Assembly (NCBI GenBank): GCA_964420395.1
Contig: CAYQTJ010000004.1
Coordinates: 2,506 to 66,505, forward strand
Direction: 5' to 3'
DNA length: 64,000 bases
Origin: an uncultured Fibrobacteraceae bacterium
Lineage (GTDB): Bacteria > Krumholzibacteriota > Krumholzibacteriia > LZORAL124-64-63
Part shown: one piece after another, positions 18,505-61,633 of the stretch
Layout of the letters: every line of letters begins with the position of its first letter
Position numbering within the stretch: the stretch's first letter is position 1
Notes under the pieces: generated by a model
Seen by the model: the letters and a program-made list of their open reading frames with translations, nothing else
The model's database searches: none
Told to the model about the DNA's origin: nothing
Position numbers and translations under genes: made by a program

Positions 18505-18753
18505 AATAACCAGATCCGGATTCTGGGGAATCTCACCCGCTTTCCTCGGGACCCGGGCCTGCGCCAGTCAAGACAGCGGGCGCGCCGGGCGCGCCGATGA
18601 GACAGCAACCAGCGCTGGACCGGCGGGCTGGTGCCCCGGCCCATTCGCCATCCCGATCGCGCGGCATGCAGGATCCACGTCGTCTCCGGCCGGGCCGGAG
18701 GCAGCTCCCCTGCCGTAGCCCTATCGCCCACCCCCGTCGTTCGGAGGCCGCGG

Positions 18754-23609: not shown

Positions 23610-23853
23610 GGACGAAGTCACACCGGAGTGGGGCGCCGTCGGCGCCGCCGCTCCGCTACCACCTCCCGGAGGGCTGGACGACCGCACCTGGGTAACGGGC
23701 AGCAGTGGCGGGCCGGCAGGGCCGGCCCCGCATTGGCAGCAGCGTTCACAGTCCCCCGAGGAGGCATCCGTTTCCTCACGCAGAAGTCGATGAAGACACG
23801 TGCTTCTCGCGGCTCCGGCCGCGAGTTACGTCGCTATTGACCGGAGGGTATGC

Positions 23854-45361: not shown

Positions 45362-45383
45362 GGCGGGGCCCGGGGAGGGATCC

Positions 45384-48684: not shown

Positions 48685-48692
48685 GGGGCCTC

Positions 48693-49067
48693 TTGCTCGG
48701 ACTCGGGGCCGACCTGGTGGAGGTTTCGCGCGTGGAGGCGCTGCTGCGGCGTCACGGCGCCCGCTTCCGGGAGCGGATCTCGAGCGCGGCCGAGCTGGCC
48801 GGCGGTCCCGCGGCGACCGCCGCCGGCGAGGCGGCGGCGCTGGCGGAGCGCTGGGCGGCCAAGGAGGCCTGCCTGAAGGCGCTGGGGGCGGGCGCCGCCG
48901 GCGTGCCCCTGTCGGCGATCGAGGTGATCGCCGGGCGGGAGGGGGCGCCGGCGCTGCGGCTGCGGGGGGCCGCGGCGGCGGCGCTGGCGGCGATGGGGGG
49001 CAGCTCGGCCCACCTCGCGCTCGCGCGGGCCGGCGACTGGGCCGCGGCGCTCGTGGCGATCGCCTGA
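48693..49067 (+). CDS. acpS: Holo-[acyl-carrier-protein] synthase (4'-phosphopantetheinyl transferase).
   Basis: LGLGADLVEVSRVE (GxDxxEixR) ... WAAKEACLKALG. TTG start inferred. Confidence 0.55.
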   Translation: MLGLGADLVEVSRVEALLRRHGARFRERISSAAELAGGPAATAAGEAAALAERWAAKEACLKALGAGAAGVPLSAIEVIAGREGAPALRLRGAAAAALAAMGGSSAHLALARAGDWAAALVAIA

Positions 49068-49168
49068 GATGACGCGGCGGAGGGAGCTTGCCCGGCCGCG
49101 CTCCTGCGGATATCATCCGGCTGCCGACGATCGGGCGAAACCGCGGTCGTTCCGGGAGGGACGTGCCT

Positions 49169-50101
49169 TTGCTCCGGCTGGACTACCTGCAGTTGGACGT
49201 CTTCACCGACCGCCCGTTCGGGGGGAGTCGGCTCACGCTCTTTCCGCGCGGCGAGGGGCTCTCCGGCCGCCTGATGCAGGCCATCGCCGGCGAGGTGGGC
49301 TGCGGCGAGACCGCCTTCGTGCTGCCCAGCCGCCAGCGTCGGCAGAACTGGTGGGCGCTGCGCATCTTCACGCCCCGCGCGGAGATCCCGTTCGCCGGCC
49401 ATTCGGTGCTCGGCGCCGCCTGCGCGCTCGACCACCTCGGCCTGCTCGCGCACAGTGGCGATCGCACGCTGTGCGAGTGGGAACTCGAGGCGGGGTATTT
49501 TCCGGTGGTGATCCGGGACGAGGGGGGCAGTCCCCTCTACAGCCTCGTGCACAACCCGCCGGTGTTCCTCGGCCGCTACTACCACCGGGATCGCGTGGCG
49601 CGTGCGCTTGGCCTGCCGGTGGAAGAGCTGGCGATCACCGGACTGCCGTGCGAGGTGATCTCGACCGGCCTGCCGATCCACGTCGTGCCGGTCGGCTCGC
49701 TGGCTGCCGTGCAGAGCATCGTGCCGCGCGCGGCCGAGACCGAGGCGATCGCCGCCGATCTCGGCTTCGGCGACCTGTTCGTGTTCACGTGCGAGACGGA
49801 AGCCGAAGACGCCGACGTGCATTGCCGGATGTTCGCGCCCCACTTCGGCATTCCCGAGGATCCGGCGAGCGGCTCGGCCATGGGGGCGCTGGCGGCGTAC
49901 CTGATCAAGCACCGCCTCGTGGCCATGGAGCCGCACCTGCGGCTCGTCGGCGAGCAGGGGCTGGAGATGGGCCGTCCCAGCCGCCTGATCGTCGAGGCCG
50001 AGATCGAGAACGGACAGGCCAGCCTGATCCAGGTGGGGGGGCGCTGCCTCGTCGTGGGCGAGGGGCGGCTCACCCTCGCGGGTGACCCCTTCGCGAGTTG
50101 A
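49169..50101 (+). CDS. PhzF-family isomerase-like protein.
   Basis: LDYLQLDVFTDRPFGG...GETAFVLP N-terminal signature. TTG start inferred. Confidence 0.6.
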   Translation: MLRLDYLQLDVFTDRPFGGSRLTLFPRGEGLSGRLMQAIAGEVGCGETAFVLPSRQRRQNWWALRIFTPRAEIPFAGHSVLGAACALDHLGLLAHSGDRTLCEWELEAGYFPVVIRDEGGSPLYSLVHNPPVFLGRYYHRDRVARALGLPVEELAITGLPCEVISTGLPIHVVPVGSLAAVQSIVPRAAETEAIAADLGFGDLFVFTCETEAEDADVHCRMFAPHFGIPEDPASGSAMGALAAYLIKHRLVAMEPHLRLVGEQGLEMGRPSRLIVEAEIENGQASLIQVGGRCLVVGEGRLTLAGDPFAS

Positions 50102-50138
50102 ATCCTGCGACTGCCGGAGCGAAAGGAGCCGACGCCCG

Positions 50139-51797
50139 ATGACCACGCCCGCCGGACTGAGCCCCGAGATGTGCGACATGGTGGTGCAGACCCTGCGCCA
50201 GGTGGTGAAGCGCGACCTTCCCGACGAACGGGTGCTGGCGCTCGATCACGACGAGACCTTCCCGGAGGAGTTCATCCGAACCCTGCTTTCGCCCGAGGTG
50301 GGACTGCACCTGCTGTTCCTCCCCGAAGCCGTGGGGGGGCTCGGCGGCGGCGCGCGCGACATCTGCCGCGTCTCGGAAGAGATGGCGGGCATCGACCTGG
50401 GGGTGGCCACCGCGTTCCTGGCCATCTGCCTCGGAACCGATCCGATCATCGTGGGGGGCACGCCGGAGCAGAAGACGCGCTGGTTGTCGCGCATCGCGGG
50501 CGAGGGGCTGATCGTCGCCTACGGCGTGACCGAGCCGGCGGCCGGCAGCAACGTGGCGGCGCTCCAGACGCGGGCCGAGCCGGTGCGCGATCCGGCCGGC
50601 ACGATCACGCACTACCGCCTCAACGGCGCGAAGCAGTTCATCACCAATGGCGGCGTGGCGCAGCTGTACACGATCCTGGCGCAGGCCCCCGCGGGGCCGA
50701 CATTCTTCGTGGTGGAGCGCGACACGCCCGGGGTGTCGGCCGGCAGGCAGGAGGACAAGCACGGCATCCGGGCGTCCAACACGACCAGCGTCCTGCTCGA
50801 GGACGTGCTGGTGCCGGCGGACCAGTTGATCGGTCTCGAGGAGGGGCGGGGCCTGAAGCAGGCCAACGCGGTCTTCGGCTACACGCGGCTCATGGTGGGC
50901 GCGTTCGGGCTCGGCGCGGGCCAGATGGCGCTCGACCGGGCGCTCGACTACGCCCGCTCGCGCGTCCAGTTCGGCTCGCCGCTGATCGAGAAGCAGGGTT
51001 ACACGCACAAGCTGCTGGTGCCGAACTGGGTCGACCTGGCGGCCGGCCGGGCGTACGTGCGGGAGATCGCGCTGCGCATCGACTCGGGGGAGCACGACCT
51101 GCAGGTGGAGGGCTCGATCGCCAAGCTCTGGTGCACCGAGGCGGGCAACCGCGCCGCGGACGCCGCGCTGCAGGCCTTCGGCGGCTATGGCTACACGCGC
51201 GAGTACATGGTCGAGAAGATCCGGCGCGACGTGCGCATCACGAGCATCTACGAGGGAACCAGCGAGATCCAGCAGAGCATCATCGGACTGTTCCGCTGGA
51301 AGGAGACCGTCCGCTCGAAGGGGGCCTTCTACGGCGACGCCGCCGCCTCGCTCGACGCGCTGCACGAGCGGCATCCGCAGGTGGGGGCCCGGCTCGCGGC
51401 GGTGGCGCTGCGCACGCTGGGGGAGGCGATCCTCCATTGCCACGCGGCGGGGTTGACCAGGCAGCAGATCGTCCAGTTCACCCTCGCCGACATGGCCACG
51501 GCGGCGGAGGTGGCGGGGGCGTTCTGCCGCCTGACCGCCGCCGAGGCCGACGCCGGCGCGGCCGACGCGACGACGCGGGCCGCGATGAGCCGGCAGTGCG
51601 CGCGGCAGGCGCTGGCGGCGGTGCGGCGCGGAGCCCTGGAGTGCGCGTTGGGCCAGGTCGATCCGGCGGACGAGGCGCAACTGGCACAGGCGGCGCCGGC
51701 GGTGGCGACCCTGGCGCCGGTGGAGGCCTGGCGGACCCTGGCGGGCGGGTGGCGGGACCACGATCTGATCGCGCAGCACCTGCGGGGGCTCGCCTAG
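50139..51797 (+). CDS. Acyl-CoA dehydrogenase-family protein with a C-terminal extension of about 170 aa.
   Basis: ACAD N, middle and C domains: YGVTEPAAGSN, GAKQFITNG, YEGTSEIQQ. They are followed by an Ala-rich extension with no recognised domain. Confidence 0.7.
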   Translation: MTTPAGLSPEMCDMVVQTLRQVVKRDLPDERVLALDHDETFPEEFIRTLLSPEVGLHLLFLPEAVGGLGGGARDICRVSEEMAGIDLGVATAFLAICLGTDPIIVGGTPEQKTRWLSRIAGEGLIVAYGVTEPAAGSNVAALQTRAEPVRDPAGTITHYRLNGAKQFITNGGVAQLYTILAQAPAGPTFFVVERDTPGVSAGRQEDKHGIRASNTTSVLLEDVLVPADQLIGLEEGRGLKQANAVFGYTRLMVGAFGLGAGQMALDRALDYARSRVQFGSPLIEKQGYTHKLLVPNWVDLAAGRAYVREIALRIDSGEHDLQVEGSIAKLWCTEAGNRAADAALQAFGGYGYTREYMVEKIRRDVRITSIYEGTSEIQQSIIGLFRWKETVRSKGAFYGDAAASLDALHERHPQVGARLAAVALRTLGEAILHCHAAGLTRQQIVQFTLADMATAAEVAGAFCRLTAAEADAGAADATTRAAMSRQCARQALAAVRRGALECALGQVDPADEAQLAQAAPAVATLAPVEAWRTLAGGWRDHDLIAQHLRGLA

Positions 51798-51902: not shown

Positions 51903-52703
51903 ATGGATGAGCCGGACGAAATGTCATGGACGACCCACCCGTTCCGCCGCCACCCCGGGCGCGGCCTGGCCGGTCTCGGCGTGAGCCTCGCCGCGCTGGC
52001 GCTGGTGCAGGCGTGGGCGCGGACGGCCGCGCTCACCGGGCTGGGGGCGCTGCTGCTGGCGGTGTCGCTCTGGCCGTTCTACTTCCCCACGCGCTGGCGG
52101 GTCGACGGGACCGGCGTCGCGGCCGACTACGGGCTGTGGCGACGGCGATGGCCCTGGGAGCGTTTCCGGGCCTGCGTCCCGCTGCCGGGCGCGGTGGTGC
52201 TGACCCCCCTTCGCCCGGCCGCACCCGCTGGAGCGCTGGCGCGCGGTCGTGGTGCCGTGCCCGGACGCGGGGGAGCGGCTGCTGGCGACGCTGTCCCGGC
52301 GTCTGCCCTGCCGGGACGGGAAGGGGGGGGGTGCCGCGTGAACGCGCCCCGGTCCCAGCCGCCGGCCCTGCCCGGCGCGGCGGCGCTCGCCGAAGCGACC
52401 GGCCCTCGGCCCGCCACACTCGAGGCCGCGGACGACCTCCTGCTGGCCGAACTGGCCCTCGCGGTGCAGCGGCGCGGCCTGGCCACCCCCGCGGTGCTTT
52501 GGCTGGAGAGCCTGCGGCCGCTCTCGTTCGTCGGCGCGCAGGCGATGCACGCGCTGACCCCCTTCGTCCAACTGCTGACCAGGGGTGCCCGGTTCGAACG
52601 GCTCGCCGAGATCTTCGAGGATCGCGGGCACCTGGAGCGCTTCCTGCGCCTGATCGAGACCGCGGCGGCGGCGCCGGCCGCAAGGACGGAGGGCCCGCAG
52701 TGA
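51903..52703 (+). CDS. Hypothetical protein with an N-terminal TM hairpin and a C-terminal soluble domain. First gene of a seven-gene operon.
   Basis: Hydrophobic segments GLAGLGVSLAALALV and LTGLGALLLAVSLWPFYF. The stop overlaps the next start. Confidence 0.4.
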   Translation: MDEPDEMSWTTHPFRRHPGRGLAGLGVSLAALALVQAWARTAALTGLGALLLAVSLWPFYFPTRWRVDGTGVAADYGLWRRRWPWERFRACVPLPGAVVLTPLRPAAPAGALARGRGAVPGRGGAAAGDAVPASALPGREGGGCRVNAPRSQPPALPGAAALAEATGPRPATLEAADDLLLAELALAVQRRGLATPAVLWLESLRPLSFVGAQAMHALTPFVQLLTRGARFERLAEIFEDRGHLERFLRLIETAAAAPAARTEGPQ

Positions 52704-54553
52704 GCGCCCCCGCCGGCGGTCCGCACCCGGCCGCGCCGCCCCCCGCCGCCTGCGACGTCATTCTGGTCACCGACTGCGGATCGACCTCGACGAAGGCGAT
52801 CCTCGTCGAGCGCCGCGACGGACGGTTCCGCCTGACCGCCCGGGGCGAGGCGCCGACGACCGTGGAGGCCCCCTGGGAGGACGTCACGCGCGGCGTGCGC
52901 AACGCGATCGCCGAAGTGTCCGAACTGTCCGGCCGGCGGCTCCTCGACCCCGCGACCGGCGCCCTGCTCCGCCCGGCGCGCGACGGCGAGGGGGTGGACC
53001 TCTTCCTCAGCACCAGCAGCGCCGGCGGCGGGCTGCAGATGCTGGTGGCGGGAGTCGTGCGCAACATGACCGCCGAGAGCGCCGAGCGGGCCGCGCTGGG
53101 CGCCGGGGCCATCGTGATGGACGTCATCGCGTTCAACGATCCGCGCCGGCCGCACGAGCAGATCGAGCGGATCCGGCAGCTTCGTCCCGACATGATCCTG
53201 CTCAGCGGCGCCGTCGACGGGGGCAGCACCAGCCACGTGGTCAAGCTGGCGGAGCTGGTCGCCGCGGCCGAGCCGCGGCCGCGCCTCGGCGGGGCGGGCG
53301 AGCTGCCGGTCGTCTACGCGGGCAACGTCGACGCGCGGGCCGCGGTCGCCGCCGCCTTCGGCGGCCGGGTGGACCTCGTGATGGTGGACAACCTGCGGCC
53401 GGTCCTGGAGCGGGAGAACCTCGGTCCGGCGCGGGAGAAGATCCACGACGTCTTCCTGGAGCACGTCATGGCGCGGGCGCCCGGCTACCTCGCCCTGATG
53501 GCCATGTGCGACCATCCGATCATGCCTACGCCCGCGGCCGTCGGCATGATGGTGCAGTCGATCTCGGCCGAGGGGGGGCGCGACGTGCTGGCGGTCGACA
53601 TCGGCGGCGCCACGACCGATGTCTTCTCCGTCTTCGACGGGCAGTTCAACCGCACGGTCAGCGCGAACCTGGGGATGAGCTACAGCGTGGCCAACGTGCT
53701 GCGCAGCGCGGGGCTGGAGAACGTGAAGCGGTGGGTGCCGGCGCCGATCGAGGAGCGCGACCTGCGGGATCGCCTGCTCAACAAGATGATCCGCCCCACG
53801 ACGCTCCCGCAGCTGATGAGCGACCTGCTCGTGGAGCAGGCGGTGGCCCGGGAGGCGCTGCGCCTCGCCTTCGCGCAGCACCGGGCTTTCGCCACGCGAC
53901 GCCTGATGGGGGTCCACCGGCGGCGCACCATCGGCGACGCCTTCCGGCAGGACGACGAGGACCAGAGCCTCGTCAACCTGCTGGACCTCGACCTGCTCAT
54001 CGGATCGGGCGGGGTGCTCTCGCACGCGCCGCGCCGCGCGCAGGCGGCGCTGATGCTGGTGGACGCCTTCCTGCCCGAGGGGCTGACCAGGCTGGCCGTG
54101 GATTCGGTGTTCATGCTGCCGCAACTCGGGGTGCTCAACGGCGTCCACCCGGTCGCGGCGCACGAGGTATTGGCGAGCGACTGCCTGATCCCGCTGGGCT
54201 CCTGCCTGGCGCCCGTCGGTCCGGCGCTCCGGCCCGGCAGCCCGCTGGCGCGCGTGACGCTGGCGCTGGAGAGCGGCGCCACGCTGGAGGCGCGGGTGCT
54301 GGCGGGGGAAGTCGAACTGCTGCCGCTGGCGCGCGGCACGCGGGCGCGGCTGCGGGTGGAGCCGGGCCGCGGCTTCGACGTCGGGCGCGGCCCCGGCACC
54401 CCGCTCGAGACCGATGTCGCGGGGGGCGAGGTGGGCCTGATCCTGGACGGCCGCGGCCGGCCCCTGGCCTGGCCGGCGCGCGAGAGCGAGCGCCTCGATT
54501 GCCTGCGGCGGTGGCATGCCGCGCTCGACATCTACCCCGAGGGAGCCGCGTGA
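52700..54553 (+). CDS. ASKHA-superfamily ATPase of the GlmL/MutL (glutamate-mutase reactivase-like) type.
   Basis: N-terminal phosphate-1 motif ILVTDCGSTSTKAILVE. Second-lobe motif VLAVDIGGATTDVFSV. At 617 aa it is longer than canonical GlmL. GTG start overlaps the upstream stop. Confidence 0.45.
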   Translation: MSAPAGGPHPAAPPPAACDVILVTDCGSTSTKAILVERRDGRFRLTARGEAPTTVEAPWEDVTRGVRNAIAEVSELSGRRLLDPATGALLRPARDGEGVDLFLSTSSAGGGLQMLVAGVVRNMTAESAERAALGAGAIVMDVIAFNDPRRPHEQIERIRQLRPDMILLSGAVDGGSTSHVVKLAELVAAAEPRPRLGGAGELPVVYAGNVDARAAVAAAFGGRVDLVMVDNLRPVLERENLGPAREKIHDVFLEHVMARAPGYLALMAMCDHPIMPTPAAVGMMVQSISAEGGRDVLAVDIGGATTDVFSVFDGQFNRTVSANLGMSYSVANVLRSAGLENVKRWVPAPIEERDLRDRLLNKMIRPTTLPQLMSDLLVEQAVAREALRLAFAQHRAFATRRLMGVHRRRTIGDAFRQDDEDQSLVNLLDLDLLIGSGGVLSHAPRRAQAALMLVDAFLPEGLTRLAVDSVFMLPQLGVLNGVHPVAAHEVLASDCLIPLGSCLAPVGPALRPGSPLARVTLALESGATLEARVLAGEVELLPLARGTRARLRVEPGRGFDVGRGPGTPLETDVAGGEVGLILDGRGRPLAWPARESERLDCLRRWHAALDIYPEGAA

Positions 54554-55665
54554 GCCACGCCTATTATCCCGGCCTGCGGGCCAGCGAGTGGGTCGCCCTG
54601 CGGCGGGAGCGCTTCCTGCCGGTCGAGGGCGAGGTCCTGGTGCGCGAAGGGCAGACGGTCGCGTCGGACACCGTGGTGGCGCGCACGATCCTGCGGGGGA
54701 CGCTCACGCCGGTGAACGTGGCGGCCAGTCTGGGGGTCGAGCCGGGCGAGGTCAACGAGGCGCTCCTGAAGCGCGCCGGCGAGGCGGTGTGCCAGGGCGA
54801 GCTGCTCGCCCGCACGAAGGGGGTCTTCGGGCTGTTGCGGGCCGAGTGCCGGGCGCCGGTCACCGGCACGATCGCCACGGCCTCGGTCGCGACCGGTCAG
54901 GTGATGATCGAGGGGCCGCCGCTGCCGGTGGAGGTCAAGGCGCACCTGGCCGGCACGGTGGTGTCGGTGCGGCCGGGGCGCGGGGCGACGATCGCCGCCG
55001 CGGGCACCTGGATCCAGGGGATCTTCGGCATCGGCGGCGAGGCGTGGGGGGCGATCGTCCTGGGGGTCTCGGCGCCGAGCGAACGGCTGACGGAGAAGGA
55101 GATCACCCCCGAGCTGCAGGGCAAGATCGTCGTGGGGGGCGCGCTGGTCACGCGTGAGGCGCTGGCGCGCGCCGCGCAACTCGGGATCGGCGCGATCGTC
55201 ACCGGCGGCGTGCACGCGCTCGATCTGGGCGAATTCATGGGTTGCGAGATCGGCGCCGGCGTGACCGGCGCCGAGCAGGTCGGCCTGACCCTGATCGTGA
55301 CCGAGGGTTTCGGCGAGATCGCCATGGCGCGCCGCACCTTCCGGCTGCTCGGCCAGCGCGAGGGCTTCCTGGCGAGCGTGAGCGGAGCCACCCAGATCCG
55401 GTCCGGGGTGCTGCGCCCCGAGATCATCGTGCCGGCGGCGACGGGGGAGCGCGGCGCGGCGGACGCCGTGGCGGCCGACGGCATCGCCGTCGGCACCTCC
55501 GTGCGGCTGGTGCGCGCGCCGCACTTCGGACAGCTCGGGACGGTGGTGGCCCTGCCGCCCGACCCGTGCGCGGTGGCGAGCGGCGCGGTCGTGCGGATCC
55601 TCGAGGCCGAACTGGAATCGGGCGTGCGGGTCACCGTGCCGCGCAGCAACGTCGAACTGTTCTGA
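54550..55665 (+). CDS. Hypothetical soluble protein with an N-terminal barrel-sandwich-hybrid / lipoyl-like domain.
   Basis: LPVEGEVLVREGQTVASDTVVAR, then Gly-rich GKIVVGGALVT...GIGAIVTGGV segments. GTG start overlaps the upstream stop. No confident family. Confidence 0.4.
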   Translation: MSHAYYPGLRASEWVALRRERFLPVEGEVLVREGQTVASDTVVARTILRGTLTPVNVAASLGVEPGEVNEALLKRAGEAVCQGELLARTKGVFGLLRAECRAPVTGTIATASVATGQVMIEGPPLPVEVKAHLAGTVVSVRPGRGATIAAAGTWIQGIFGIGGEAWGAIVLGVSAPSERLTEKEITPELQGKIVVGGALVTREALARAAQLGIGAIVTGGVHALDLGEFMGCEIGAGVTGAEQVGLTLIVTEGFGEIAMARRTFRLLGQREGFLASVSGATQIRSGVLRPEIIVPAATGERGAADAVAADGIAVGTSVRLVRAPHFGQLGTVVALPPDPCAVASGAVVRILEAELESGVRVTVPRSNVELF

Positions 55666-55686
55666 GCCGCTCCGCGAGGAGGCCGC

Positions 55687-56505
55687 GTGGACGCCTGGTT
55701 TGCGCCGGAAAGCTGGAACCTGGCGCTGTTCGCGCTGGTCGTGGGCGGGACGATCATGCTTTCCATCCGCCGGGCCGAACGGGGCCGGCCGCCCCGCGTG
55801 CGCCGCCTGCCGGGCGTGGACGCGATCGCGGAGGCGGTGGGCCGGGCGGTGGAACTGGGGCGGCCGGTGCTGTTCGTGCCCGGCTCGCGCGACCTCGACA
55901 ACGTGCAGACGGTGGCCGGTCTGGCGCTGCTGGGCGAGGTGGCCGGACTGGCCGCCCGGCTGGAGTGCCAGCTCCAGGTTCCGACCAGCCGGAGCCTCGT
56001 GCTGGCGGCCGCCCGCGACGCCTGCCGCACCGCCTTCATCTCCGCCGGCCGCGCGGAGGCCTGGCGTGACGAGACCGTCAGCTACGTCTCGGACGACCAG
56101 CTCGGGCTGGCGGCGCGCGTGGACGGGATGATCGCCCGCGACCGCCCCGCGGCCTGCCTGCTGTTCGGCTTCTTCGGCGCGGAATCGCTGCTGATGGCCG
56201 AGGCGGGCGCGCAGGCGGGGGCGATCCAGATCGCCGGCACCGCGGAGAAGAGCCAGTTGCCGCTGTTCGTGGCGGCGTGCGATTACACCCTCATCGGCGA
56301 GGAGCTCTTCGCCGCCAGCGCCTGCCTGACGGGTGAGCCGGCGCTGCTCGGCACGCTGCGCGGACAGGATCTGGGCAAGGCGTTCGCGGCGGCCTGCCTG
56401 GTCGCCGGCGCTCTGCTCGCCACGGCCGCCACGCTCACGGACTGGGCGCCGCTGGTGGCGCTGCGCGCCGCCTTCCTGCGCCTCTTCGAGACGGGGGTCG
56501 GCTGA
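55687..56505 (+). CDS. Hypothetical membrane-associated protein.
   Basis: N-terminal TM LALFALVVGGTIMLSI and C-terminal hydrophobic segments. Same operon. Confidence 0.4.
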   Translation: MDAWFAPESWNLALFALVVGGTIMLSIRRAERGRPPRVRRLPGVDAIAEAVGRAVELGRPVLFVPGSRDLDNVQTVAGLALLGEVAGLAARLECQLQVPTSRSLVLAAARDACRTAFISAGRAEAWRDETVSYVSDDQLGLAARVDGMIARDRPAACLLFGFFGAESLLMAEAGAQAGAIQIAGTAEKSQLPLFVAACDYTLIGEELFAASACLTGEPALLGTLRGQDLGKAFAAACLVAGALLATAATLTDWAPLVALRAAFLRLFETGVG

Positions 56506-56506
56506 C

Positions 56507-57202
56507 ATGCGCCGTCGCCTCCCGCGGATCGTGGTCGGGATCGTCGGCAGCCTGCTGATCCTGAAGGCGTTCGTGCCGCGGCCGGGCGCGGCCGGTCCCA
56601 CCGAGTGGCAGGCGTTCTTCGCCTACGTCGACGAGAACTTCTCCGTCTGGTTCAACATCCTTGCCGTGTTCGCCTTCGGCCTGGGGGCCGCGAGCCTCCT
56701 GAGGGTCCACGGCGGGCGGGTGCTGCGGCGGCAGCGCGACTGGCCCTATTCCCTGGCGGGGCTGACCGCCTTCGGGGTGGTGCTGATCGCCGGGCTGGCG
56801 CGCGTCGGCGGGGATCCCTCGGACGCCGGCTCGACCGTGCACTGGATCTTCCGGGCCGTGATCAGCCCGTTGCAGGCGAGCATCTTCGCCCTGCTCGCCT
56901 TCTACATCGCCTCCGCCTCCTACCGCGCGTTCCGCGTCCGGTCGCGCGAGGCGGCGGCCCTGCTGGTGGCGGCGCTCATCATCCTGGCGGGGCGCACGCC
57001 GTTCGGCCACTCGCTGACCGACTGGCTGCCGGCGTCGCTGTCGTTCCTGCGCCTGGAGAACGTGGCGCTGTGGGTGGTGCAGGTCCCCAACACGGCCGGC
57101 CAGCGGGCGATCACCATCGGCATCGCGCTCGGGACCGTGGCGATGTCGCTGCGACTGCTGCTGGGGATCGAGCGCGGCCTGCTCGGGCGGGGGGACTCGT
57201 GA
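56507..57202 (+). CDS. Hypothetical polytopic membrane protein.
   Basis: At least five hydrophobic helices. The ATG is 1 nt after the upstream stop. Confidence 0.4.
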   Translation: MRRRLPRIVVGIVGSLLILKAFVPRPGAAGPTEWQAFFAYVDENFSVWFNILAVFAFGLGAASLLRVHGGRVLRRQRDWPYSLAGLTAFGVVLIAGLARVGGDPSDAGSTVHWIFRAVISPLQASIFALLAFYIASASYRAFRVRSREAAALLVAALIILAGRTPFGHSLTDWLPASLSFLRLENVALWVVQVPNTAGQRAITIGIALGTVAMSLRLLLGIERGLLGRGDS

Positions 57203-58083
57203 GCGGGGGGGGCGAACGGCCGGTGCGGGGATCGGCGCTCTCGTCGCTCGACCGGCGCTGGGTCCATGCGGCGCTGGCCGGGGCGATCCTGCTCTCGATC
57301 GTGGCGCGGATCCGCTTTCCCGACACCCCGTCGCCGCTCGTGCAGGGGCTGTACGACCGGGTGGAGAGCCTGCCGGCGGGAGCGCCGATCGTGCTCTCGC
57401 TCGACTATTCACCGAATTCCCGTCCGGAGCTGGAGCCGATGGCGCGCGCGCTGGCGCGCCACGCGCTGCTGCGCGGCCACCGCCTGATCCTGCTCTCGGT
57501 CTGGGACACCGGCAACGCGATGATCGAGGAGCTGCGGACCGACGTGCTGGCCGTCGAGTTCCCCGACCGGCGGGAGGGGGCCGACTGGGTGGCGCTGGGC
57601 TACAAGGCCGGGAACGAGATCCTGATCAACGCCATCCGGGACAACTTCGGCTCCATGTACCGCACCGACCTGCGCGACAGCCTGCTCGCGTCGCTGCCGG
57701 CCCTCGCGGGGGTGCGCGGCCTCTCGGACTGCGGGCTGATCGTGTCGCTGTCCGGCGGGTCGCCCGGCCTGAAGGAGTGGATCCTGTTCGCCGGCGACGT
57801 GACCGGCGTGCCGGTGGCCGGGGGCTGCACCGGGGTCGGGACGCCGGAGTTCCTGCCCTATTTCCCGCGGCAGTTGATCGGTCTGCTGGGCGGACTGAAG
57901 GGGGCCGCGGAGTACGAGGCGGCCCTCGAGCGCGGGCATCCCGACTTCCCCCAGCGCACCATGGCCGCCACGGACGGCATGGGACCGCAGTCGGTCGCGC
58001 ACACGGTCATCATCGTCTTCATCCTCCTGGGCAACGCCGGCTACCTGATCGAGCGGCGGCGCCGGCGGCGGGGGTCGCCGTGA
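57199..58083 (+). CDS. Hypothetical protein with N- and C-terminal TM segments and a large middle domain.
   Basis: GTG start overlaps the upstream stop. No known family. Confidence 0.4.
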   Translation: MSGGGERPVRGSALSSLDRRWVHAALAGAILLSIVARIRFPDTPSPLVQGLYDRVESLPAGAPIVLSLDYSPNSRPELEPMARALARHALLRGHRLILLSVWDTGNAMIEELRTDVLAVEFPDRREGADWVALGYKAGNEILINAIRDNFGSMYRTDLRDSLLASLPALAGVRGLSDCGLIVSLSGGSPGLKEWILFAGDVTGVPVAGGCTGVGTPEFLPYFPRQLIGLLGGLKGAAEYEAALERGHPDFPQRTMAATDGMGPQSVAHTVIIVFILLGNAGYLIERRRRRRGSP

Positions 58084-58772
58084 GCGGCGGGCTGCACCCG
58101 AGCGGGAGCCTGGAGGTGTGGGTCGGCGCCTGCCTGACGCTGATGGTCTTCAGCTTCCTGTGGCGGGACAATCCCTTCTACAAGTTCGCCGAGCACGTGC
58201 TCGTCGGCGCGTCCGCCGCCTACGTGATGGTGATCAACTTCTGGAGCACCCTCTGGCCGAACGCGATCGTCAAGCTCTGGCCGGCCGCGGAGCGGGTGGT
58301 CAATCCGGAGGCGGTACCGGGGTCGCCCGAGCCGGTGGTGCTGGTGCCGGTCGCGCTGGGCCTGCTGATGCTCTGCCGCCTGCACCCGCGGACCGCCGCC
58401 TGGAGCCGCTGGCCGACCGCCTTCGCGATCGGCGTCAGCGCCGGCACCAACCTGCTGCGCTACCTGCAATCGGATTTCCTCCTGCAACTGCGCGCGGCGG
58501 CGGCGCCGAGCCTGGTGGTCCTGCACGGGGGCCGGCTGCAGCTGGGGGAGAGCCTGTCCAACATCGTGCTGCTGGTCGGTACGCTGTGCGGCCTCGCCTA
58601 CTTCACGTACACCCGCGAGCACCGCGGCCCGCTGGGCCGGATGGCCCGCTTCGGCATCGGTTTCATGATGGTGACTTTCGGAACCTCCTTCGGCTACACC
58701 GTGATGGCGCGTATATCCTTGCTGGTAAGCAGGTTGCACTTTCTCGTCGGGAACTGGCTCGGCCTGATCTGA
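58080..58772 (+). CDS. Hypothetical polytopic membrane protein. Last gene of the operon.
   Basis: About six hydrophobic helices. GTG start overlaps the upstream stop. Confidence 0.4.
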   Translation: MSGGLHPSGSLEVWVGACLTLMVFSFLWRDNPFYKFAEHVLVGASAAYVMVINFWSTLWPNAIVKLWPAAERVVNPEAVPGSPEPVVLVPVALGLLMLCRLHPRTAAWSRWPTAFAIGVSAGTNLLRYLQSDFLLQLRAAAAPSLVVLHGGRLQLGESLSNIVLLVGTLCGLAYFTYTREHRGPLGRMARFGIGFMMVTFGTSFGYTVMARISLLVSRLHFLVGNWLGLI

Positions 58773-58891
58773 ACCCCGCCGCCGGCCGGGCGCCGGCCGG
58801 CGCTACAGGTCGCGCGCCGGGCGGCCGAAGATAAAGTTGACGGCCCAGGGTCCGTATCCATAGACTGGCGCCCCGCGTCAGAGAGGGCTTC

Positions 58892-59815
58892 ATGCTGGAT
58901 TCCGGCACGAATATCGAGCGGCAGATTCAATTCTATCAGCGCAAGTACGAGCTGAATCCGCACTCGCGCGCCTTCGCGCCGCTGGCCGACCTCTACCGCA
59001 AGGCAGGACGGCTCGAGGAGGCGCTGGAGGTGCTGGAGGCGGGACTCGCCGAGCATCCCCAGTACGTTTCCGCGCTGGTGATCATGGCCCGTTGCCACGT
59101 CGACGCGGGACGCGCGGCCGAGTCCGGCGAGGCGTTCACGCGCGTGCTGGCGCTCGACCCGGACAATCTCGTCGCGCTCAAGAGCCTCGCCGAGATGGCC
59201 CTGGCCGGCGGTGACGACGCCCGCGGCGCCTCGTTGCTCGAGCGCGTCGTCTTCCTCGACCCCACGGACGAACCCGCGGCGGAGCGTCTCGAAACGTTGC
59301 GCGGCGGGGCGGTCGCCTCGCCGGCCGGCCCCGAGGAGACCGGGCAGGCCGCCGAGCCTCCCGAGGCGCCGGAGCACGCCGCCGTGGCGCTCCCCCCGCC
59401 CGCCGCCGAGGCGGAGCATGCGCCGCAGACCGCCGTCGCGACAGCGCCGGAGGCGGTGGCGGAAGCCGCCGCGGCCGCGCCGACGCCGGACGGCGAAGGG
59501 GTGTCGGACCGGGAGGCCGTCTCTCCCGTGCAGGAGCGCCAGTCGTTCGCCACGCGGACCCTGGCGGAGATCTACCTGGCCCAGGGCTATCGGGAGAAGG
59601 CCCTGACGGTCCTGCGCGAGATCCTGGCGCGCCATCCGGACCGCGAGGACGTCGCGGCGAAGGTCGCGGAAATCGAGAGCCAGCCGCCCGCCGCCGTTCC
59701 CGCCGGCCCCTCCGCGCCGCCGTCGGCCGCTTCGCCGCCCCCACCGGCGACCGAGAACCGGCTGCACTTCGAGGCGTGGCTCGGCCGCGTGGCCAAGCCG
59801 GAAGAGGGCCCTTGA
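58892..59815 (+). CDS. TPR-repeat protein with a Pro/Ala-rich linker.
   Basis: TPR-like helices at both ends (YRKAGRLEEALEVLEAGL..., YLAQGYREKALTVLREIL). Confidence 0.55.
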   Translation: MLDSGTNIERQIQFYQRKYELNPHSRAFAPLADLYRKAGRLEEALEVLEAGLAEHPQYVSALVIMARCHVDAGRAAESGEAFTRVLALDPDNLVALKSLAEMALAGGDDARGASLLERVVFLDPTDEPAAERLETLRGGAVASPAGPEETGQAAEPPEAPEHAAVALPPPAAEAEHAPQTAVATAPEAVAEAAAAAPTPDGEGVSDREAVSPVQERQSFATRTLAEIYLAQGYREKALTVLREILARHPDREDVAAKVAEIESQPPAAVPAGPSAPPSAASPPPPATENRLHFEAWLGRVAKPEEGP

Positions 59816-60264
59816 GCGATCCGATCCCGGTTTCCATCCTGAACGGCCCCAACCTGGACCAGCTCGGACGGCGCGAACCGGCCCTCTACGGCCCGACCAG
59901 CTGGCCCGAACTGGTGTCGCTGTGCGGGCAGTGGGCCACGGCCGCCGGGCTGCGCGCCGACGTGGAGCAGGCCGACGGGGAAGGGGAGCTGATCGCCCGG
60001 CTGCACGCGGCCGGTCGGTCCGCCGCCGGCATCGTCCTGAACGCCGCCGCCTACAGCCACACCTCGGTCGCCCTGCGCGACTGCCTGCTCTGCCTCCAGG
60101 TGCCGGTCGTCGAGGTCCACCTGACGAACCCCCTGCGACGAGAGCCGTTCCGTCGCACCAGCCTCATCGCCGACGTCGTGGCCGCGACCGTCCAGGGTTT
60201 CGGCGTGGACGGCTACCGCCTCGCCATCGAGGGGCTGGCAGGGCTCCTGCGCCAGCGTCGCTGA
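59812..60264 (+). CDS. aroQ: 3-dehydroquinate dehydratase, type II.
   Basis: SILNGPNLDQLGRREPALYG N-terminal signature. HLTN region. TTG start overlaps the TPR gene stop. Confidence 0.8.
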   Translation: MSDPIPVSILNGPNLDQLGRREPALYGPTSWPELVSLCGQWATAAGLRADVEQADGEGELIARLHAAGRSAAGIVLNAAAYSHTSVALRDCLLCLQVPVVEVHLTNPLRREPFRRTSLIADVVAATVQGFGVDGYRLAIEGLAGLLRQRR

Positions 60265-60367
60265 CCGGCGCGCCGCCCATCCTGGCGTTGCCAACCCCGC
60301 CGCGGAATGCTATCAATAGGGGCGCTCGCGGCGGTTGAAGACGATTCTTCAGGAAGAAAGCGAGGCG

Positions 60368-60928
60368 GTGTTGGCCTCCACCAGTGATTTCCGCAATGGC
60401 ATGGTGATCCGCTTCCGCGAGGGGCTCTGGTCCATCGTGGAATTCCAGCATGTCAAGCCGGGCAAGGGTGGCGCCTTCGTGCGCACCAAGCTCAAGAACG
60501 TCGAGACCGGCCGGGTGGTCGAGGAGACCTTCCGCGCCGGGGAGAAGGTCGAGGAGGTCCGCATCGAACGGCAGGACTACCAGTACCTGTACCGCGAGGC
60601 CGATTTCCTGACGTTCATGAACCTGGCCACCTACGAGCAGATGCACCTGCCGATGGAGAACATCGAGGATGTCGTCCCCTACCTGAAGGAGGGGGAGAAG
60701 GTCATCCTCGTCCTGCACGAGGAGCGTCCTCTCGCCGTGGAGCCGCCGTACACGGTCGAATTGAAGGTCGTCACCACCGATCCCGGCGTGCGCGGCGACA
60801 CCGCGCAGGGCGGGTCGAAGCCGGCGACCATGGAGACGGGCCTGGTCGTGCAGGTCCCGCTCTTCATCGAACAGGGGGAGGTGCTGAAGGTCGACACGCG
60901 CACCGGAAAGTACCTGGGCCGCGTCTGA
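60368..60928 (+). CDS. efp: Translation elongation factor P. The modification-loop Lys is conserved (KPGKGGAF).
   Basis: STSDFRNGMVI...VKPGKGGAFVRTKLKN... Three OB-fold domains. Start inferred at GTG 60368. Confidence 0.85.
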   Translation: MLASTSDFRNGMVIRFREGLWSIVEFQHVKPGKGGAFVRTKLKNVETGRVVEETFRAGEKVEEVRIERQDYQYLYREADFLTFMNLATYEQMHLPMENIEDVVPYLKEGEKVILVLHEERPLAVEPPYTVELKVVTTDPGVRGDTAQGGSKPATMETGLVVQVPLFIEQGEVLKVDTRTGKYLGRV

Positions 60929-60956
60929 GTCCGGCCCGACCCGCGGAAAGGAAGCC

Positions 60957-61436
60957 ATGCAGATCGACGACGTCCGCCAACTCGTCAAGCTGGTCGAGGA
61001 GAGCGGGATCGAGGAGCTCGAGATCTCCAGCGAAGGCACCACGATCCGCATCCAGAAGAGGCGGAGCGGGGAGGCGGCCGTGATAGCTCCGCCGCCGCAG
61101 TACTACTATCCGGCGCCCGGCGCTCCCGGCTCGCCGGGCGCTCCGCCGGCCCCGGCCCCGGCCGCGCTGTCGGGCGTGGCCGAGGAGCGCGCGCGCTGGA
61201 AGGAATTCCGCTCCCCGATTGTGGGCACCTTCTACCGGGCCGCCGCCCCCGGCGCGGAGCCGTTCGTCTCCGTTGGCGATCGCATTTCGGTCGGCCAGAC
61301 CGTCTGCATCATCGAGGCGATGAAGGTGATGAACGAGATCGAGGCCGAGACCGCCGGCATCATCCGGGAGATCCTCGTGGAGAACGCGAGCCCCGTGGAG
61401 GCCGAAGCCATCCTGTTCCTCATCGAGCCCCAATAG
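60957..61436 (+). CDS. accB: Biotin carboxyl carrier protein of acetyl-CoA carboxylase.
   Basis: Biotinyl domain with the EAMKVMNEIEA motif. Pro/Ala-rich linker. Confidence 0.8.
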   Translation: MQIDDVRQLVKLVEESGIEELEISSEGTTIRIQKRRSGEAAVIAPPPQYYYPAPGAPGSPGAPPAPAPAALSGVAEERARWKEFRSPIVGTFYRAAAPGAEPFVSVGDRISVGQTVCIIEAMKVMNEIEAETAGIIREILVENASPVEAEAILFLIEPQ

Positions 61437-61437
61437 T

Positions 61438-61463
61438 CGCCACGCGGTCGCGTGGCGCCACGC
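61438..61463 (+). terminator. GC-rich overlapping palindromes after accB (cgccacgc-ggtc-gcgtggcg, extended by gcgtggcgccacgc). Terminator-like.
   Basis: Inverted repeats read directly from the sequence. No U-tract. Confidence 0.25.
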
Positions 61464-61633
61464 GCATCGCCCCGCCCGCCCGTCGCCCCGGCCCCCCGCC
61501 GGGGCGACCTTCGTCCCGCCCCGCCGTTGCGCTCAAGCCTGACGAGCTTCGTGCCGATGATGGTGGAGCCGGATTCCAGTCCGTCGCGGGATTCCGCGCG
61601 GCGTCATCGACCGTCAGCACCGGGGGAGTCCCG

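What the first reader, a model, noticed from the sequence alone, without database searches (positions are those of the whole stretch)
51903..58772. Translationally coupled seven-gene operon of unknown function: GlmL-like ASKHA ATPase, barrel-sandwich-hybrid protein and four membrane proteins
Seven + strand ORFs run from 51903 to 58772. Five junctions are 4-nt stop/start overlaps or a 1-nt gap (52700/52703, 54550/54553, 56505/56507, 57199/57202, 58080/58083), and the sixth is a 21-nt gap (55665/55687). This argues for a single operon with stoichiometric co-expression. Only one protein has a recognisable fold family. That is the 617-aa ASKHA-type ATPase, whose ILVTDCGSTSTKAIL and VLAVDIGGATTDVF motifs resemble GlmL/MutL, the glutamate-mutase reactivase family. 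No mutase genes (glmS/glmE) are present. The ATPase is instead flanked by a protein with a lipoyl/barrel-sandwich-hybrid-like N-terminus and by one membrane-associated, two polytopic membrane and one bitopic protein. An ASKHA ATPase coupled to a dedicated membrane module does not match any operon I can name; it is not Pil, Nqr/Rnf or ABC. An extended acyl-CoA dehydrogenase (50139-51797) sits directly upstream and may belong to the same unit. This is my best candidate for an undescribed membrane-associated system, possibly a transporter or assembly machine energised or gated by an actin-fold ATPase.
Basis: partly seen in the sequence, partly recalled or inferred. Interest (0 to 1): 0.75.

Follow-up and report, generated by a model that had tools for sequence, protein, structure and literature searches.

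The report
Uncharacterised ATPase-plus-membrane-protein operon, widely conserved
This is a real, tightly packed operon of eight genes (not seven) that pairs an actin-fold ATPase and its partner protein with four membrane proteins; it recurs in hundreds of species from many bacterial phyla, nobody has described it, and its function is unknown.

Summary
The operon is real. ORFs 2-7 have GC3 of 0.94-0.97 and the stated 4-nt overlaps.

P2 belongs to Pfam MutL (PF13941) but scores below all three NCBIfam GlmL-type cut-offs and has no mutase partner. P4 is DUF6754. P3, P5, P6 and P7 match no family and no solved structure.

The P4-P5-P6-P7 cassette keeps its order in 90 of 93 testable copies and occurs in at least 590 species. 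These include Planctomycetota (cultured Gimesia maris), Zixibacteria, Ignavibacteria, Gemmatimonadota, Eisenbacteria, Acidobacteriota and Cloacimonadota. P2-P3 lies directly upstream in 24 of 55 testable loci. P2 and P3 are fused into one polypeptide in at least 40 of the 150 best P2 relatives. Zixibacteria and Ignavibacteria carry up to three paralogous cassettes with a single P2-P3 pair.

Predicted topology puts the conserved P4 domain in the cytoplasm and the conserved P6 domain in the periplasm.

Best reading (inference, about 0.5): a cytoplasmic ATPase module (P1b-P2-P3) works on interchangeable four-subunit membrane modules to do work across or beyond the inner membrane.

The upstream acyl-CoA dehydrogenase is not part of the unit. 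No publication was found.

The parts
51903..52341 (+). P1a: small membrane protein with a two-TM hairpin (about residues 21-61) and a Trp/Arg-rich cytoplasmic tail. It is frameshifted in this assembly by one extra C in the C6 run 52204-52209.
   Evidence: tblastn and DNA alignment to L004, L006 and L007. Deleting one C gives a 145-aa protein collinear with the 144-aa L004 orthologue and ending at TGA 52339-52341.
52338..52703 (+). P1b: small soluble protein of about 121 aa with the conserved motif LWLESLRPLSF.GAQAMH.LTPFV. Its GTG start overlaps the P1a stop (GTGA).
   Evidence: 67% identical to the 125-aa L004 gene. P1-type genes are found in 29 loci. One library representative (P0329) has this part fused to the N-terminus of P2.
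52700..54553 (+). P2: 617-aa ASKHA-fold ATPase of the MutL/GlmL (hydantoinase-branch) family, with a system-specific C-terminal domain of about 120 aa (residues ~495-617).
   Evidence: PF13941 E 1.2e-120 over residues 21-494. It scores below the NCBIfam cut-offs for GlmL, Or-4 and TIGR01319. Orthologues are 56-64% identical across phyla. The invariant motifs are D25-C-G-S-T, D300-I-G-G-A-T-T-D307 and S436-G-G-V-L-S.
54550..55665 (+). P3: 371-aa soluble three-domain partner of P2. It has an N-terminal barrel-sandwich hybrid, a central swivelling beta/beta/alpha-type domain and a C-terminal KOW/SH3-like barrel.
55687..56505 (+). P4: DUF6754 protein with TM1 (about 9-30), a highly conserved cytoplasmic Rossmann-like domain (about 40-215) and a C-terminal TM helix (about 232-250). 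Many orthologues add a signal peptide and an extracytoplasmic FN3 domain at the N-terminus.
56507..57202 (+). P5: 231-aa membrane protein with six TM helices and both termini predicted inside. Conserved motifs are ASASYRAFR (cytoplasmic) and PNTAGQR (outer face).
   Evidence: Hydropathy and positive-inside rule. Alignment A5 has 54% mean column identity. No Pfam or PDB relative.
57199..58083 (+). P6: 294-aa protein with an N-terminal TM helix, a conserved periplasmic domain of about 225 aa, a C-terminal TM helix and a poly-Arg tail.
   Evidence: Topology. Alignment A6 has 47% mean column identity with conserved acidic residues. No Pfam or PDB relative.
58080..58772 (+). P7: 230-aa polytopic membrane protein with the conserved motif (K/R)DNPFYKFAEH after TM1.
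   Evidence: Alignment A7 has 53% mean column identity. No Pfam or PDB relative.

Best explanation
The eight genes encode one multi-subunit machine built from two modules.

The cytoplasmic module is P1b-P2-P3. P2 is an actin-fold (ASKHA) ATPase of the MutL/GlmL branch. It works as one unit with its three-domain partner P3.

The membrane module is P4-P5-P6-P7, probably with P1a. P5 and P7 form the transmembrane core. P4 presents a very conserved Rossmann-like domain to the cytoplasm. P6 presents a conserved globular domain to the periplasm.

Proposed mechanism (inferred): ATP binding and hydrolysis by P2 move P3. P3 acts on the cytoplasmic domain of P4. The change passes through the P5/P7 helices to the periplasmic side, meaning P6 and, in many species, the FN3 or FG-GAP add-ons. 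The result is either substrate transport or mechanical or chemical work in the cell envelope.

One ATPase module can serve several paralogous membrane modules.

Shown here: the genes are real, they are co-linear and conserved, P2 and P3 occur as fusions, the nucleotide-binding motifs are intact, and the topology is as described. Inferred: the P2/P3-P4 contact, energy coupling across the membrane, and the nature of the substrate.
For: (1) The operon is tight, and the same overlaps recur in distant phyla.

(2) The P4-P5-P6-P7 order is kept in 90 of 93 testable cassettes. P2-P3 is directly upstream on the same strand in 24 of 55 loci with enough flank, and divergent or nearby in 5 more. Clustering of flanking ORFs finds no other family in more than 11 of 82 loci, so the unit is self-contained.

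(3) Fusion evidence: at least 40 of the best 150 P2 representatives are single P2-P3 polypeptides, and one is a P1b-P2 fusion.

(4) P2 keeps all ASKHA phosphate-1, phosphate-2 and adenosine motifs invariant and is 56-64% identical across phyla. This argues for a catalytic ATPase rather than a scaffold.

(5) Topology puts conserved domains on both sides of the membrane. P4 has Arg-rich sequence after TM1 and a signal peptide plus FN3 before TM1 in long forms. P6 is TM-domain-TM-polyArg.

(6) Zixibacteria and Ignavibacteria carry two or three tandem paralogous cassettes but one P2-P3 pair, and the third cassette forms its own old paralogue clade. This is the pattern of a shared energising module serving several membrane modules.

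(7) One P5 paralogue carries FG-GAP repeats, and many P4 proteins carry FN3. These are typical extracytoplasmic binding modules.
Against: No experiment and no homology to any characterised transporter or machine supports the mechanism.

P5 and P7 show no internal repeat and no conserved acidic residue in a predicted TM segment of the kind many transporters have.

In 23 of 55 testable loci, P2-P3 is not within 10 kb of the cassette. In Cloacimonadota, Armatimonadota, Poribacteria and WOR-3, P2-P3 or P3 sits alone. The functional link between the two modules therefore rests on adjacency in only part of the genomes. Genome-wide co-occurrence could not be tested.

Hydantoinase-branch ASKHA proteins are typically enzymes or reactivases that act on soluble partners. 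None is known as a motor for a membrane complex (established knowledge).

A P2/P3-P4 contact was not modelled because no multimer prediction was available.
Confidence: 0.5

Rival explanations
1. The membrane complex P4-P7 is a cofactor-dependent enzyme, with cobalamin or another cofactor bound by the Rossmann-like P4 domain. P2-P3 is its ATP-dependent reactivase or cofactor-loading chaperone. This would parallel the roles proposed for GlmL with glutamate mutase and shown for DdrAB and EutA with diol dehydratase and ethanolamine ammonia-lyase.
For: P2 is a member of the MutL/GlmL Pfam family. Reactivases of this ASKHA branch contain a swivelling domain and act on a Rossmann-like subunit of their client (established knowledge of DdrAB). 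P3 supplies a swivelling-type domain and P4 supplies a Rossmann-like domain. The best named Foldseek match of P4 is the cobalamin-binding domain of a mutase (8dpb_D, E 6e-3, TM 0.48 on target), and methylmalonyl-CoA mutase also appears lower in the list. One ATPase serving several client cassettes would also suit a chaperone.
Confidence: 0.13
2. The system is a membrane-bound, ATP-dependent group-transfer enzyme. P2 phosphorylates or activates a small substrate, as hydantoinase, oxoprolinase and acetone carboxylase-type ASKHA enzymes do. P3 carries the intermediate on its barrel-sandwich or swivelling domains. The membrane subunits couple the reaction to ion movement or to a lipid-linked substrate.
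For: P2 lies on the hydantoinase branch, with a Hydantoinase_A hit at E 4.6e-6. P3 combines two domain types that elsewhere act as swinging carriers: the biotinyl/lipoyl-like barrel-sandwich hybrid and the PEP-utiliser-like swivel domain. Cross-phylum identity of 45-67% mean per column in all subunits is typical of enzymes.
Against: P3 lacks the carrier residues. It has no (A/E)MKM or DKA lysine motif and no invariant His in the swivel domain. No Pfam match links P5, P6 or P7 to decarboxylase, Nqr/Rnf or other ion-pump subunits. No metabolic gene is consistently linked.
Confidence: 0.15
3. P2 is a non-enzymatic or polymerising actin-like scaffold that positions or assembles an envelope complex, in the manner of PilM-PilN-PilO, FtsA or MreB-RodZ. 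In that case ATP regulates assembly and does not power work.
For: P2 has the actin fold. Its partners are small membrane proteins with periplasmic domains, an arrangement that superficially resembles PilM/N/O or GspL/M (established knowledge).
Against: P2 belongs to the hydantoinase/MutL branch and gives no Pfam match to the PilM, FtsA or MreB families. A covalent fusion to a three-domain adaptor is not a feature of filament formers. No pilus, secretin or divisome genes are linked.
Confidence: 0.07
4. The adjacency is fortuitous: P2-P3 and P4-P7 are two unrelated systems that happen to be neighbours.
For: In 23 of 55 loci the cassette has no P2-P3 within the flank. P2-P3 fusions in Cloacimonadota stand alone.
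Against: Immediate same-strand adjacency with short gaps or overlaps recurs in Planctomycetota, Acidobacteriota, Gemmatimonadota, Marinimicrobia and the window's own lineage. In Zixibacteria and Ignavibacteria the pair is still next to the cassettes although inverted. In Marinimicrobia P1 sits between P3 and P4. Such persistence across phyla with otherwise unrelated flanks is not expected by chance.
Confidence: 0.08

Closest known systems
GlmL/MutL, the accessory protein of coenzyme-B12-dependent glutamate mutase (Pfam PF13941; NCBIfam NF040745, NF040744, TIGR01319)
   Same: P2 matches PF13941 end to end over residues 21-494 at 403.7 bits. It has the ASKHA nucleotide-binding motifs and hydantoinase-branch affinity. 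RefSeq names the Gimesia orthologue 'glutamate mutase L'.
   Different: P2 scores below all three NCBIfam cut-offs: 221 against 475, 200.9 against 600 and 154.1 against 204.05. It has an extra conserved C-terminal domain of about 120 aa. No glmS/glmE or other mutase is nearby in the window flanks or as a conserved neighbour in 82 loci. Instead it is coupled or fused to P3 and linked to four membrane proteins. The database name is therefore misleading.
ASKHA-type reactivases of B12 enzymes (diol dehydratase reactivase DdrAB, EutA)
   Same: Both combine an ASKHA ATPase, a swivelling-type domain and action on a Rossmann-like partner domain. This logic could apply to P2, P3 and P4. What is known about DdrAB comes from established knowledge and was not tested here.
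   Different: P2 gives only a marginal EutA hit at E 0.055. In this system the swivel domain is on a separate or fused partner that also has barrel-sandwich and KOW domains. The putative client is an integral membrane complex. There is no evidence for cobalamin.
NqrA / RnfC N-terminal barrel-sandwich hybrid domain (PF05896, PF13375)
   Different: Only about 90-100 residues align. The rest of P3 (swivel plus KOW) differs from NqrA and RnfC. P5, P6 and P7 give no Rnf/Nqr Pfam match, and P5 and P7 are not homologous to each other, unlike NqrD and NqrE.
Mechanotransmission ABC systems (MacB, LolCDE, FtsEX), and shared energising ATPases such as MsiK that serve several ABC permeases
   Same: This is a functional analogy only. 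A cytoplasmic ATPase is coupled to a membrane module whose conserved working domain is periplasmic (P6, plus FN3 or FG-GAP add-ons). One ATPase module serves up to three paralogous membrane cassettes.
   Different: There is no P-loop or ABC domain anywhere in the unit. The ATPase has the actin fold, and the membrane subunits are unrelated to ABC permeases.
PilM-PilN-PilO / GspL-GspM (an actin-fold protein with small membrane proteins in type IV pilus and type II secretion systems)
   Same: Both pair an actin-fold cytoplasmic protein with small membrane proteins that carry periplasmic domains.
   Different: P2 is not in the PilM or GspL families. No pilin, secretin or hexameric ATPase is linked. 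The PilT-like gene at 61634-62776 lies beyond four unrelated genes, starting with a TPR gene preceded by a promoter-like site.

Membership tests
MutL/GlmL family (Pfam PF13941) | Score at or above the Pfam gathering threshold over the full model | tested here: met
   403.7 bits against a cut-off of 27, model positions 1-449 of 450.
GlmL equivalog, the methylaspartate mutase accessory protein (NF040745; also NF040744 Or-4 and TIGR01319 glmL_fam) | Score at or above the curated NCBIfam cut-off | tested here: not met
   221 against 475, 200.9 against 600 and 154.1 against 204.05.
GlmL equivalog | Encoded with the B12-dependent mutase subunits (glmS/glmE or oraS/oraE) | tested here: not met
   The ten genes annotated on either side of the operon include no mutase. 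No additional family is conserved in more than 11 of 82 loci. The rest of the 64-kb window was not scanned against Pfam.
ASKHA ATPases | Conserved phosphate-1 (DxGxT), phosphate-2 (DxGGxT.D) and adenosine (GGG/SGG) motifs | tested here: met
   D25-C-G-S-T29, D300-I-G-G-A-T-T-D307 and S436-G-G-V are invariant in 28 orthologues from several phyla.
DUF6754 (Pfam PF20539) | Score at or above the gathering threshold | tested here: met
   P4 scores 315.9 bits against a cut-off of 27. The family has no assigned function, and no paper contains the name.
Biotinyl/lipoyl carrier domains (PF00364) | Barrel-sandwich hybrid fold | tested here: met
Biotinyl/lipoyl carrier domains (PF00364) | Modifiable Lys in the (A/E)MKM or DKA hairpin motif | tested here: not met
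   The P3 consensus contains no such motif. hhalign to the window's own AccB aligns only 18 residues upstream of the motif, at probability 1%. Lys90 is nearly invariant but lies in a different context.
PEP-utilising enzyme mobile (phosphohistidine) domain | Swivelling beta/beta/alpha fold | tested here: met
PEP-utilising enzyme mobile (phosphohistidine) domain | Conserved catalytic His | tested here: not met
   There is no invariant or nearly invariant His in either P3 alignment.
Nqr/Rnf ion-translocating oxidoreductases | Membrane subunits of the Rnf-Nqr families and an FMN-binding subunit | tested here: not met
   No Pfam hit for P5, P6 or P7, either singly or across 27-29 orthologues each. 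Only the N-terminal domain of P3 resembles NqrA and RnfC.
ABC transporters | P-loop ABC nucleotide-binding domain | tested here: not met
   No ABC_tran hit for any of the proteins.
Cobalamin-binding domain (for P4) | B12-binding Rossmann-like fold with a DxHxxG / SxL / GG signature | tested here: not met
   The fold match is weak (8dpb_D E 6e-3). There is no invariant His in P4.
Known anti-phage defence systems (PADLOC) | Any component matching a PADLOC model | tested here: not met
   No hits at E up to 0.1 for all seven ORFs.

The most novel reading that the evidence does not exclude
This is a new class of primary-active membrane machine whose motor is an actin-fold (ASKHA, MutL-branch) ATPase. 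All known primary-active membrane machines use a P-loop, P-type or rotary ATPase instead. The soluble motor-adaptor (P1b-P2-P3) plugs into interchangeable four-subunit membrane modules (P4-P7) and drives transport or envelope work. The system would be a housekeeping feature of much of the FCB and PVC groups, Acidobacteriota and related phyla.
Probability: 0.35. Interest if true: 0.92.

Novelty: categorically new. Interest (0 to 1): 0.8.

Why it matters
The system occurs in at least 590 species-level genomes and thousands of metagenomic protein clusters. Its subunits are 45-67% identical per alignment column across phyla. That is high for proteins compared across phyla and suggests a constrained, housekeeping-type role. 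Even so, every subunit is annotated as hypothetical, as a DUF, or (misleadingly) as 'glutamate mutase L'.

Working out its function would annotate seven or eight genes in a large share of environmentally dominant but poorly studied phyla. If the ATPase really powers the membrane module, it would add a new energising principle to membrane biology.

The question is directly testable, because cultured hosts such as Gimesia maris carry the whole operon.

Tried and rejected
- **Family searches:** Pfam, NCBIfam and PADLOC on all ORFs gave only MutL and DUF6754. Per-member Pfam scans of the P5, P6 and P7 orthologue sets gave no consistent family.
- **PDB profile searches:** nothing for P2, P4, P5, P6 or P7; only weak barrel-sandwich and KOW hits for P3.
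- **Homology between subunits:** P4 versus P6 and P5 versus P7 are not homologous, and P5 and P7 have no internal repeats.
- **B12 link:** the P4 profile against MutS was negative, and there are no riboswitches or other Rfam families in the window or in 7 loci.
- **Biotin carrier idea:** hhalign of P3 against AccB was negative, and there is no MKM motif.
- **Additional conserved neighbours:** none. The TPR gene is linked in 8 loci, the acyl-CoA dehydrogenase in 7 and PPDK in 8, all lineage-specific.
- **N-terminal extensions of some P2 relatives:** Peptidase_M1, GntR and TSP3 look like incidental or merged gene calls.
- **Literature:** searches for 'DUF6754', 'glutamate mutase L', and combinations of MutL, ASKHA and planctomycete terms found nothing relevant.
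- **Essentiality:** I tried to read it from the Planctopirus limnophila Tn-seq supplement (PMC10632474). This failed because the locus tags of the orthologues could not be identified and the stored file is truncated.
- **First HMM iteration script:** it timed out and was replaced.

Full report
**1. The observation**

The window is about 73% GC. In such DNA long ORFs arise by chance, so frame choice has to be tested. The six ORFs from 52700 to 58772 have GC3 of 0.94-0.97 and GC2 of 0.48-0.54, which is the signature of real genes here. There are 4-nt stop/start overlaps at 52700/52703, 54550/54553, 57199/57202 and 58080/58083, a 1-nt gap at 56505/56507 and a 21-nt gap before 55687. Purine-rich Shine-Dalgarno-like sequences precede the starts.

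The first ORF (51903-52703, GC3 0.88) is not one gene. In close relatives the same DNA encodes two genes of 144 and 125 aa with a 4-nt overlap. tblastn shows that the C-terminal third of the first product is encoded in another frame in the window. A DNA alignment pins this to one extra C in a CCCCCC run at 52204-52209. Removing it restores a 145-aa P1a that ends at TGA 52339-52341, overlapped by the GTG start of P1b at 52338.

The unit therefore has eight genes: P1a, P1b and P2-P7. It is single-copy in the window. A promoter-like site at 58837-58866 precedes the next gene, which encodes a TPR protein. No terminator-like site was found.

**2. What the proteins are**

P2 (617 aa) matches Pfam MutL (PF13941) end to end, at E 1e-120. 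It falls below the curated NCBIfam cut-offs for GlmL, the ornithine-pathway Or-4 protein and the GlmL subfamily. About 120 conserved residues follow the Pfam model. Across 28 orthologues from several phyla, P2 is 56-64% identical to the window protein, and the three ASKHA nucleotide-binding motifs are invariant.

P3 (371 aa) matches no Pfam model above threshold. An AlphaFold2 model (pLDDT 84) has three domains:
- a C-terminal KOW/SH3-like barrel.

No solved structure matches more than one of these domains. P3 has neither the biotin/lipoyl lysine motif nor a conserved histidine.

P4 (272 aa) is Pfam DUF6754 (E 2e-94). It has a TM helix, a cytoplasmic Rossmann-like domain with 58 invariant positions across phyla, and a C-terminal TM helix. 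Fold searches return only generic Rossmann-like matches.

P5 has six TM helices. P6 has a TM helix, a periplasmic domain of about 225 aa, a second TM helix and a poly-Arg tail. P7 is polytopic. None of the three has a Pfam or PDB relative, alone or as a family profile. The four membrane proteins are not detectably related to each other. No component matches a known defence system.

**3. Conservation elsewhere**

DUF6754 has more than 3,500 clusters at 90% identity in the protein collection. They include Zixibacteria, Ignavibacteria, Planctomycetota, Gemmatimonadota, Eisenbacteria, records labelled 'Fibrobacteraceae', Acidobacteriota, Marinimicrobia, Cloacimonadota and Calditrichota. The closest relatives are two unnamed soil MAGs whose P4 is 90-92% identical to the window's.

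I built HMMs for each window protein and mapped them onto 85 fetched loci. The order P4-P5-P6-P7 is intact in 90 of 93 cassettes that could be tested.

Among the 55 loci with at least 3.5 kb of upstream flank:
- P2-P3 lies immediately upstream on the same strand in 24;
- it lies nearby in another arrangement in 5 (divergently transcribed in Zixibacteria and Ignavibacteria);
- the pair is only partly detected in 3;
- it is absent from the flank in 23.

The same overlaps and short gaps between genes are seen in a Planctomycetes MAG and in a relative of the window organism. Clustering all other flanking ORFs found no further family in more than 11 of 82 loci. The acyl-CoA dehydrogenase upstream in the window is linked in only 7 loci, all close relatives, so it is not part of the unit. 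No mutase is associated.

Zixibacteria and Ignavibacteria carry two or three tandem cassettes but a single P2-P3 pair. The third cassette forms its own paralogue clade, so the duplication is old and maintained. Long forms of P4 have a signal peptide and an FN3 domain before the first TM helix. One P5 paralogue carries FG-GAP repeats.

**4. P2 and P3 are one functional unit**

An exhaustive HMMER search of P2 against 1.84 billion representative proteins gave 3,080 hits at E up to 1e-3, of which 744 were at E up to 1e-30. I mapped my HMMs onto the best 150. At least 40 of them are single polypeptides of 900-1,050 aa with P2 followed by P3. Two are complete P2+P3 fusions (P0314, P0323). One is a P1b-P2 fusion (P0329).

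The large fused family belongs to Cloacimonadota. It has a duplicated barrel-sandwich region and lacks the KOW domain. It is encoded as a stand-alone gene with no cassette within 10 kb, while a Cloacimonadota contig carries P4-P7 (L031). P2-P3, or P3 alone, also stands apart from the cassette in Armatimonadota, Poribacteria and WOR-3.

The P2-P3 partnership is thus shown by gene fusion. The partnership of P2-P3 with P4-P7 rests on recurrent adjacency in many phyla, but not in all.

**5. How it most likely works**

Three things are established. P2 is an ATPase of the actin fold with intact catalytic motifs. It is covalently or translationally coupled to a three-domain adaptor. The pair is repeatedly coupled to a four-protein membrane module that has one very conserved domain in the cytoplasm (P4) and one in the periplasm (P6).

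The explanation that fits these facts with the fewest assumptions is a two-module machine. ATP turnover in P2 moves P3. P3 acts on the P4 cytoplasmic domain. The change is passed through the P5/P7 helices to the periplasmic side. Several paralogous membrane modules sharing one ATPase module fit this reading, as do variable extracytoplasmic binding domains (FN3, FG-GAP). So does the analogy with ABC systems that share an ATPase or that transmit force to periplasmic domains.

All coupling steps are inferred. I put this reading at about 0.5. Whether the output is transport across the membrane or work in the envelope cannot be decided from the sequence.

**6. Rival readings**

- **Reactivase or cofactor chaperone for a membrane enzyme.** This draws on the GlmL, DdrAB and EutA precedent and on a weak Foldseek match of P4 to a cobalamin-binding domain. 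Against it, P4 has no His or DxHxxG signature, there is no riboswitch and there is no mutase-like partner.
- **Group-transfer enzyme that uses P3 as a swinging carrier.** This fits the domain types, but P3 lacks the carrier residues.
- **Cytoskeletal or scaffolding role.** This is unlikely for a hydantoinase-branch protein that is fused to an adaptor.
- **Chance adjacency.** This is unlikely given its recurrence across phyla with otherwise unrelated flanks. It cannot be fully excluded without genome-wide co-occurrence data.

**7. Comparison with what is known, and novelty**

P2 is a member of the MutL Pfam family but not a GlmL equivalog. The RefSeq names 'glutamate mutase L' and 'methylaspartate mutase' given to its orthologues in Gimesia are not supported by context. 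P4 belongs to a DUF. The other proteins are 'hypothetical' in RefSeq.

Searches of 8 million full texts found no paper that mentions DUF6754 or describes this gene set. Subscription-only literature is not covered by those searches.

No known class of membrane system uses a MutL-type ASKHA ATPase with a barrel-sandwich/swivel/KOW adaptor and these four membrane proteins. I therefore rate it as categorically new in kind, with the function still open.

**8. Limits**

- No multimer modelling was available, only two structure predictions could be run, and one fold library was unavailable.
- Genome-wide co-occurrence could not be tested.
- Taxon labels of MAGs are those of the records and may be imprecise.
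- TM topology comes from a hydropathy and positive-inside script, not from a dedicated predictor.

Noticed in passing
window 52204-52209: A CCCCCC homopolymer carries one C more than in relatives L007 and L004. This shifts the frame of P1a and merges it with P1b. L006 (92% related) has a different indel nearby. It is probably a homopolymer assembly error but could be a real frameshift.
   Followed up: yes
L018, L024, L029, L055, L062, L072, L077, L078, L081, L085 (Zixibacteria / Ignavibacteria loci): There are three tandem paralogous P4-P5-P6-P7 cassettes per locus with a single P2-P3 pair, often divergently transcribed. The third cassette forms its own clade. A pyruvate phosphate dikinase gene often follows the cassettes (8 loci).
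   Followed up: partly
P0385, P0479, P0570 and relatives; loci L089, L090: In Cloacimonadota, P2 and P3 are one protein of about 950-1,060 aa with a duplicated barrel-sandwich region and no KOW domain, and some have an N-terminal Zn-ribbon. The gene stands alone, for example between uvrC and a nitroreductase gene.
   Followed up: partly
L086:9595-9975 (Armatimonadota): A 23S rRNA intervening-sequence protein gene (PF05635) sits between the MutL-type gene and the P3 gene. No membrane cassette lies within 10 kb.
   Followed up: no
L077:14713-16488: A P5 paralogue of 591 aa carries FG-GAP repeats inserted in the protein, presumably in an extracytoplasmic loop. Other enlarged paralogues have no Pfam match: P5 in L084 (612 aa), P7 in L040 (560 aa) and P6 in L001 (571 aa).
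   Followed up: partly
P0366, P0320, P0315 (library representatives): Some MutL-type proteins have N-terminal GntR, Peptidase_M1 or TSP3-repeat extensions. These may be merged gene calls. A genuine GntR-MutL fusion would hint at ligand sensing.
   Followed up: no
window 58892-62776: Downstream genes are a TPR protein, type II dehydroquinase, EF-P, a biotin carboxyl carrier protein and a PilT/T2SSE-type ATPase. The same order follows the operon in relative L004. These genes are not conserved next to the system in other phyla.
   Followed up: partly
window 45342-51797: Upstream genes are an ArgZ-like Rossmann protein, a PMT_2 glycosyltransferase, a Bac_transf sugar transferase, a PhzF-like protein and an extended acyl-CoA dehydrogenase. 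They are syntenic only with close relatives.
   Followed up: partly
window 18601-23562 and 23794-28725: Two adjacent + strand ORFs of about 1,650 aa each have high GC3 (0.93-0.94). I did not examine them.
   Followed up: no
L059:585-5896 (Gimesia): Directly upstream of the operon in Gimesia lie genes for a protein with a weak match to a marine sortase-target family, a TPR/YbgF-like protein, TolQ/ExbB-like and ExbD/TolR-like proteins, and TatD. TatD and an MFS transporter are also near the operon in the Planctomycetes MAG L002. This may be lineage synteny or a hint of envelope function.
   Followed up: no
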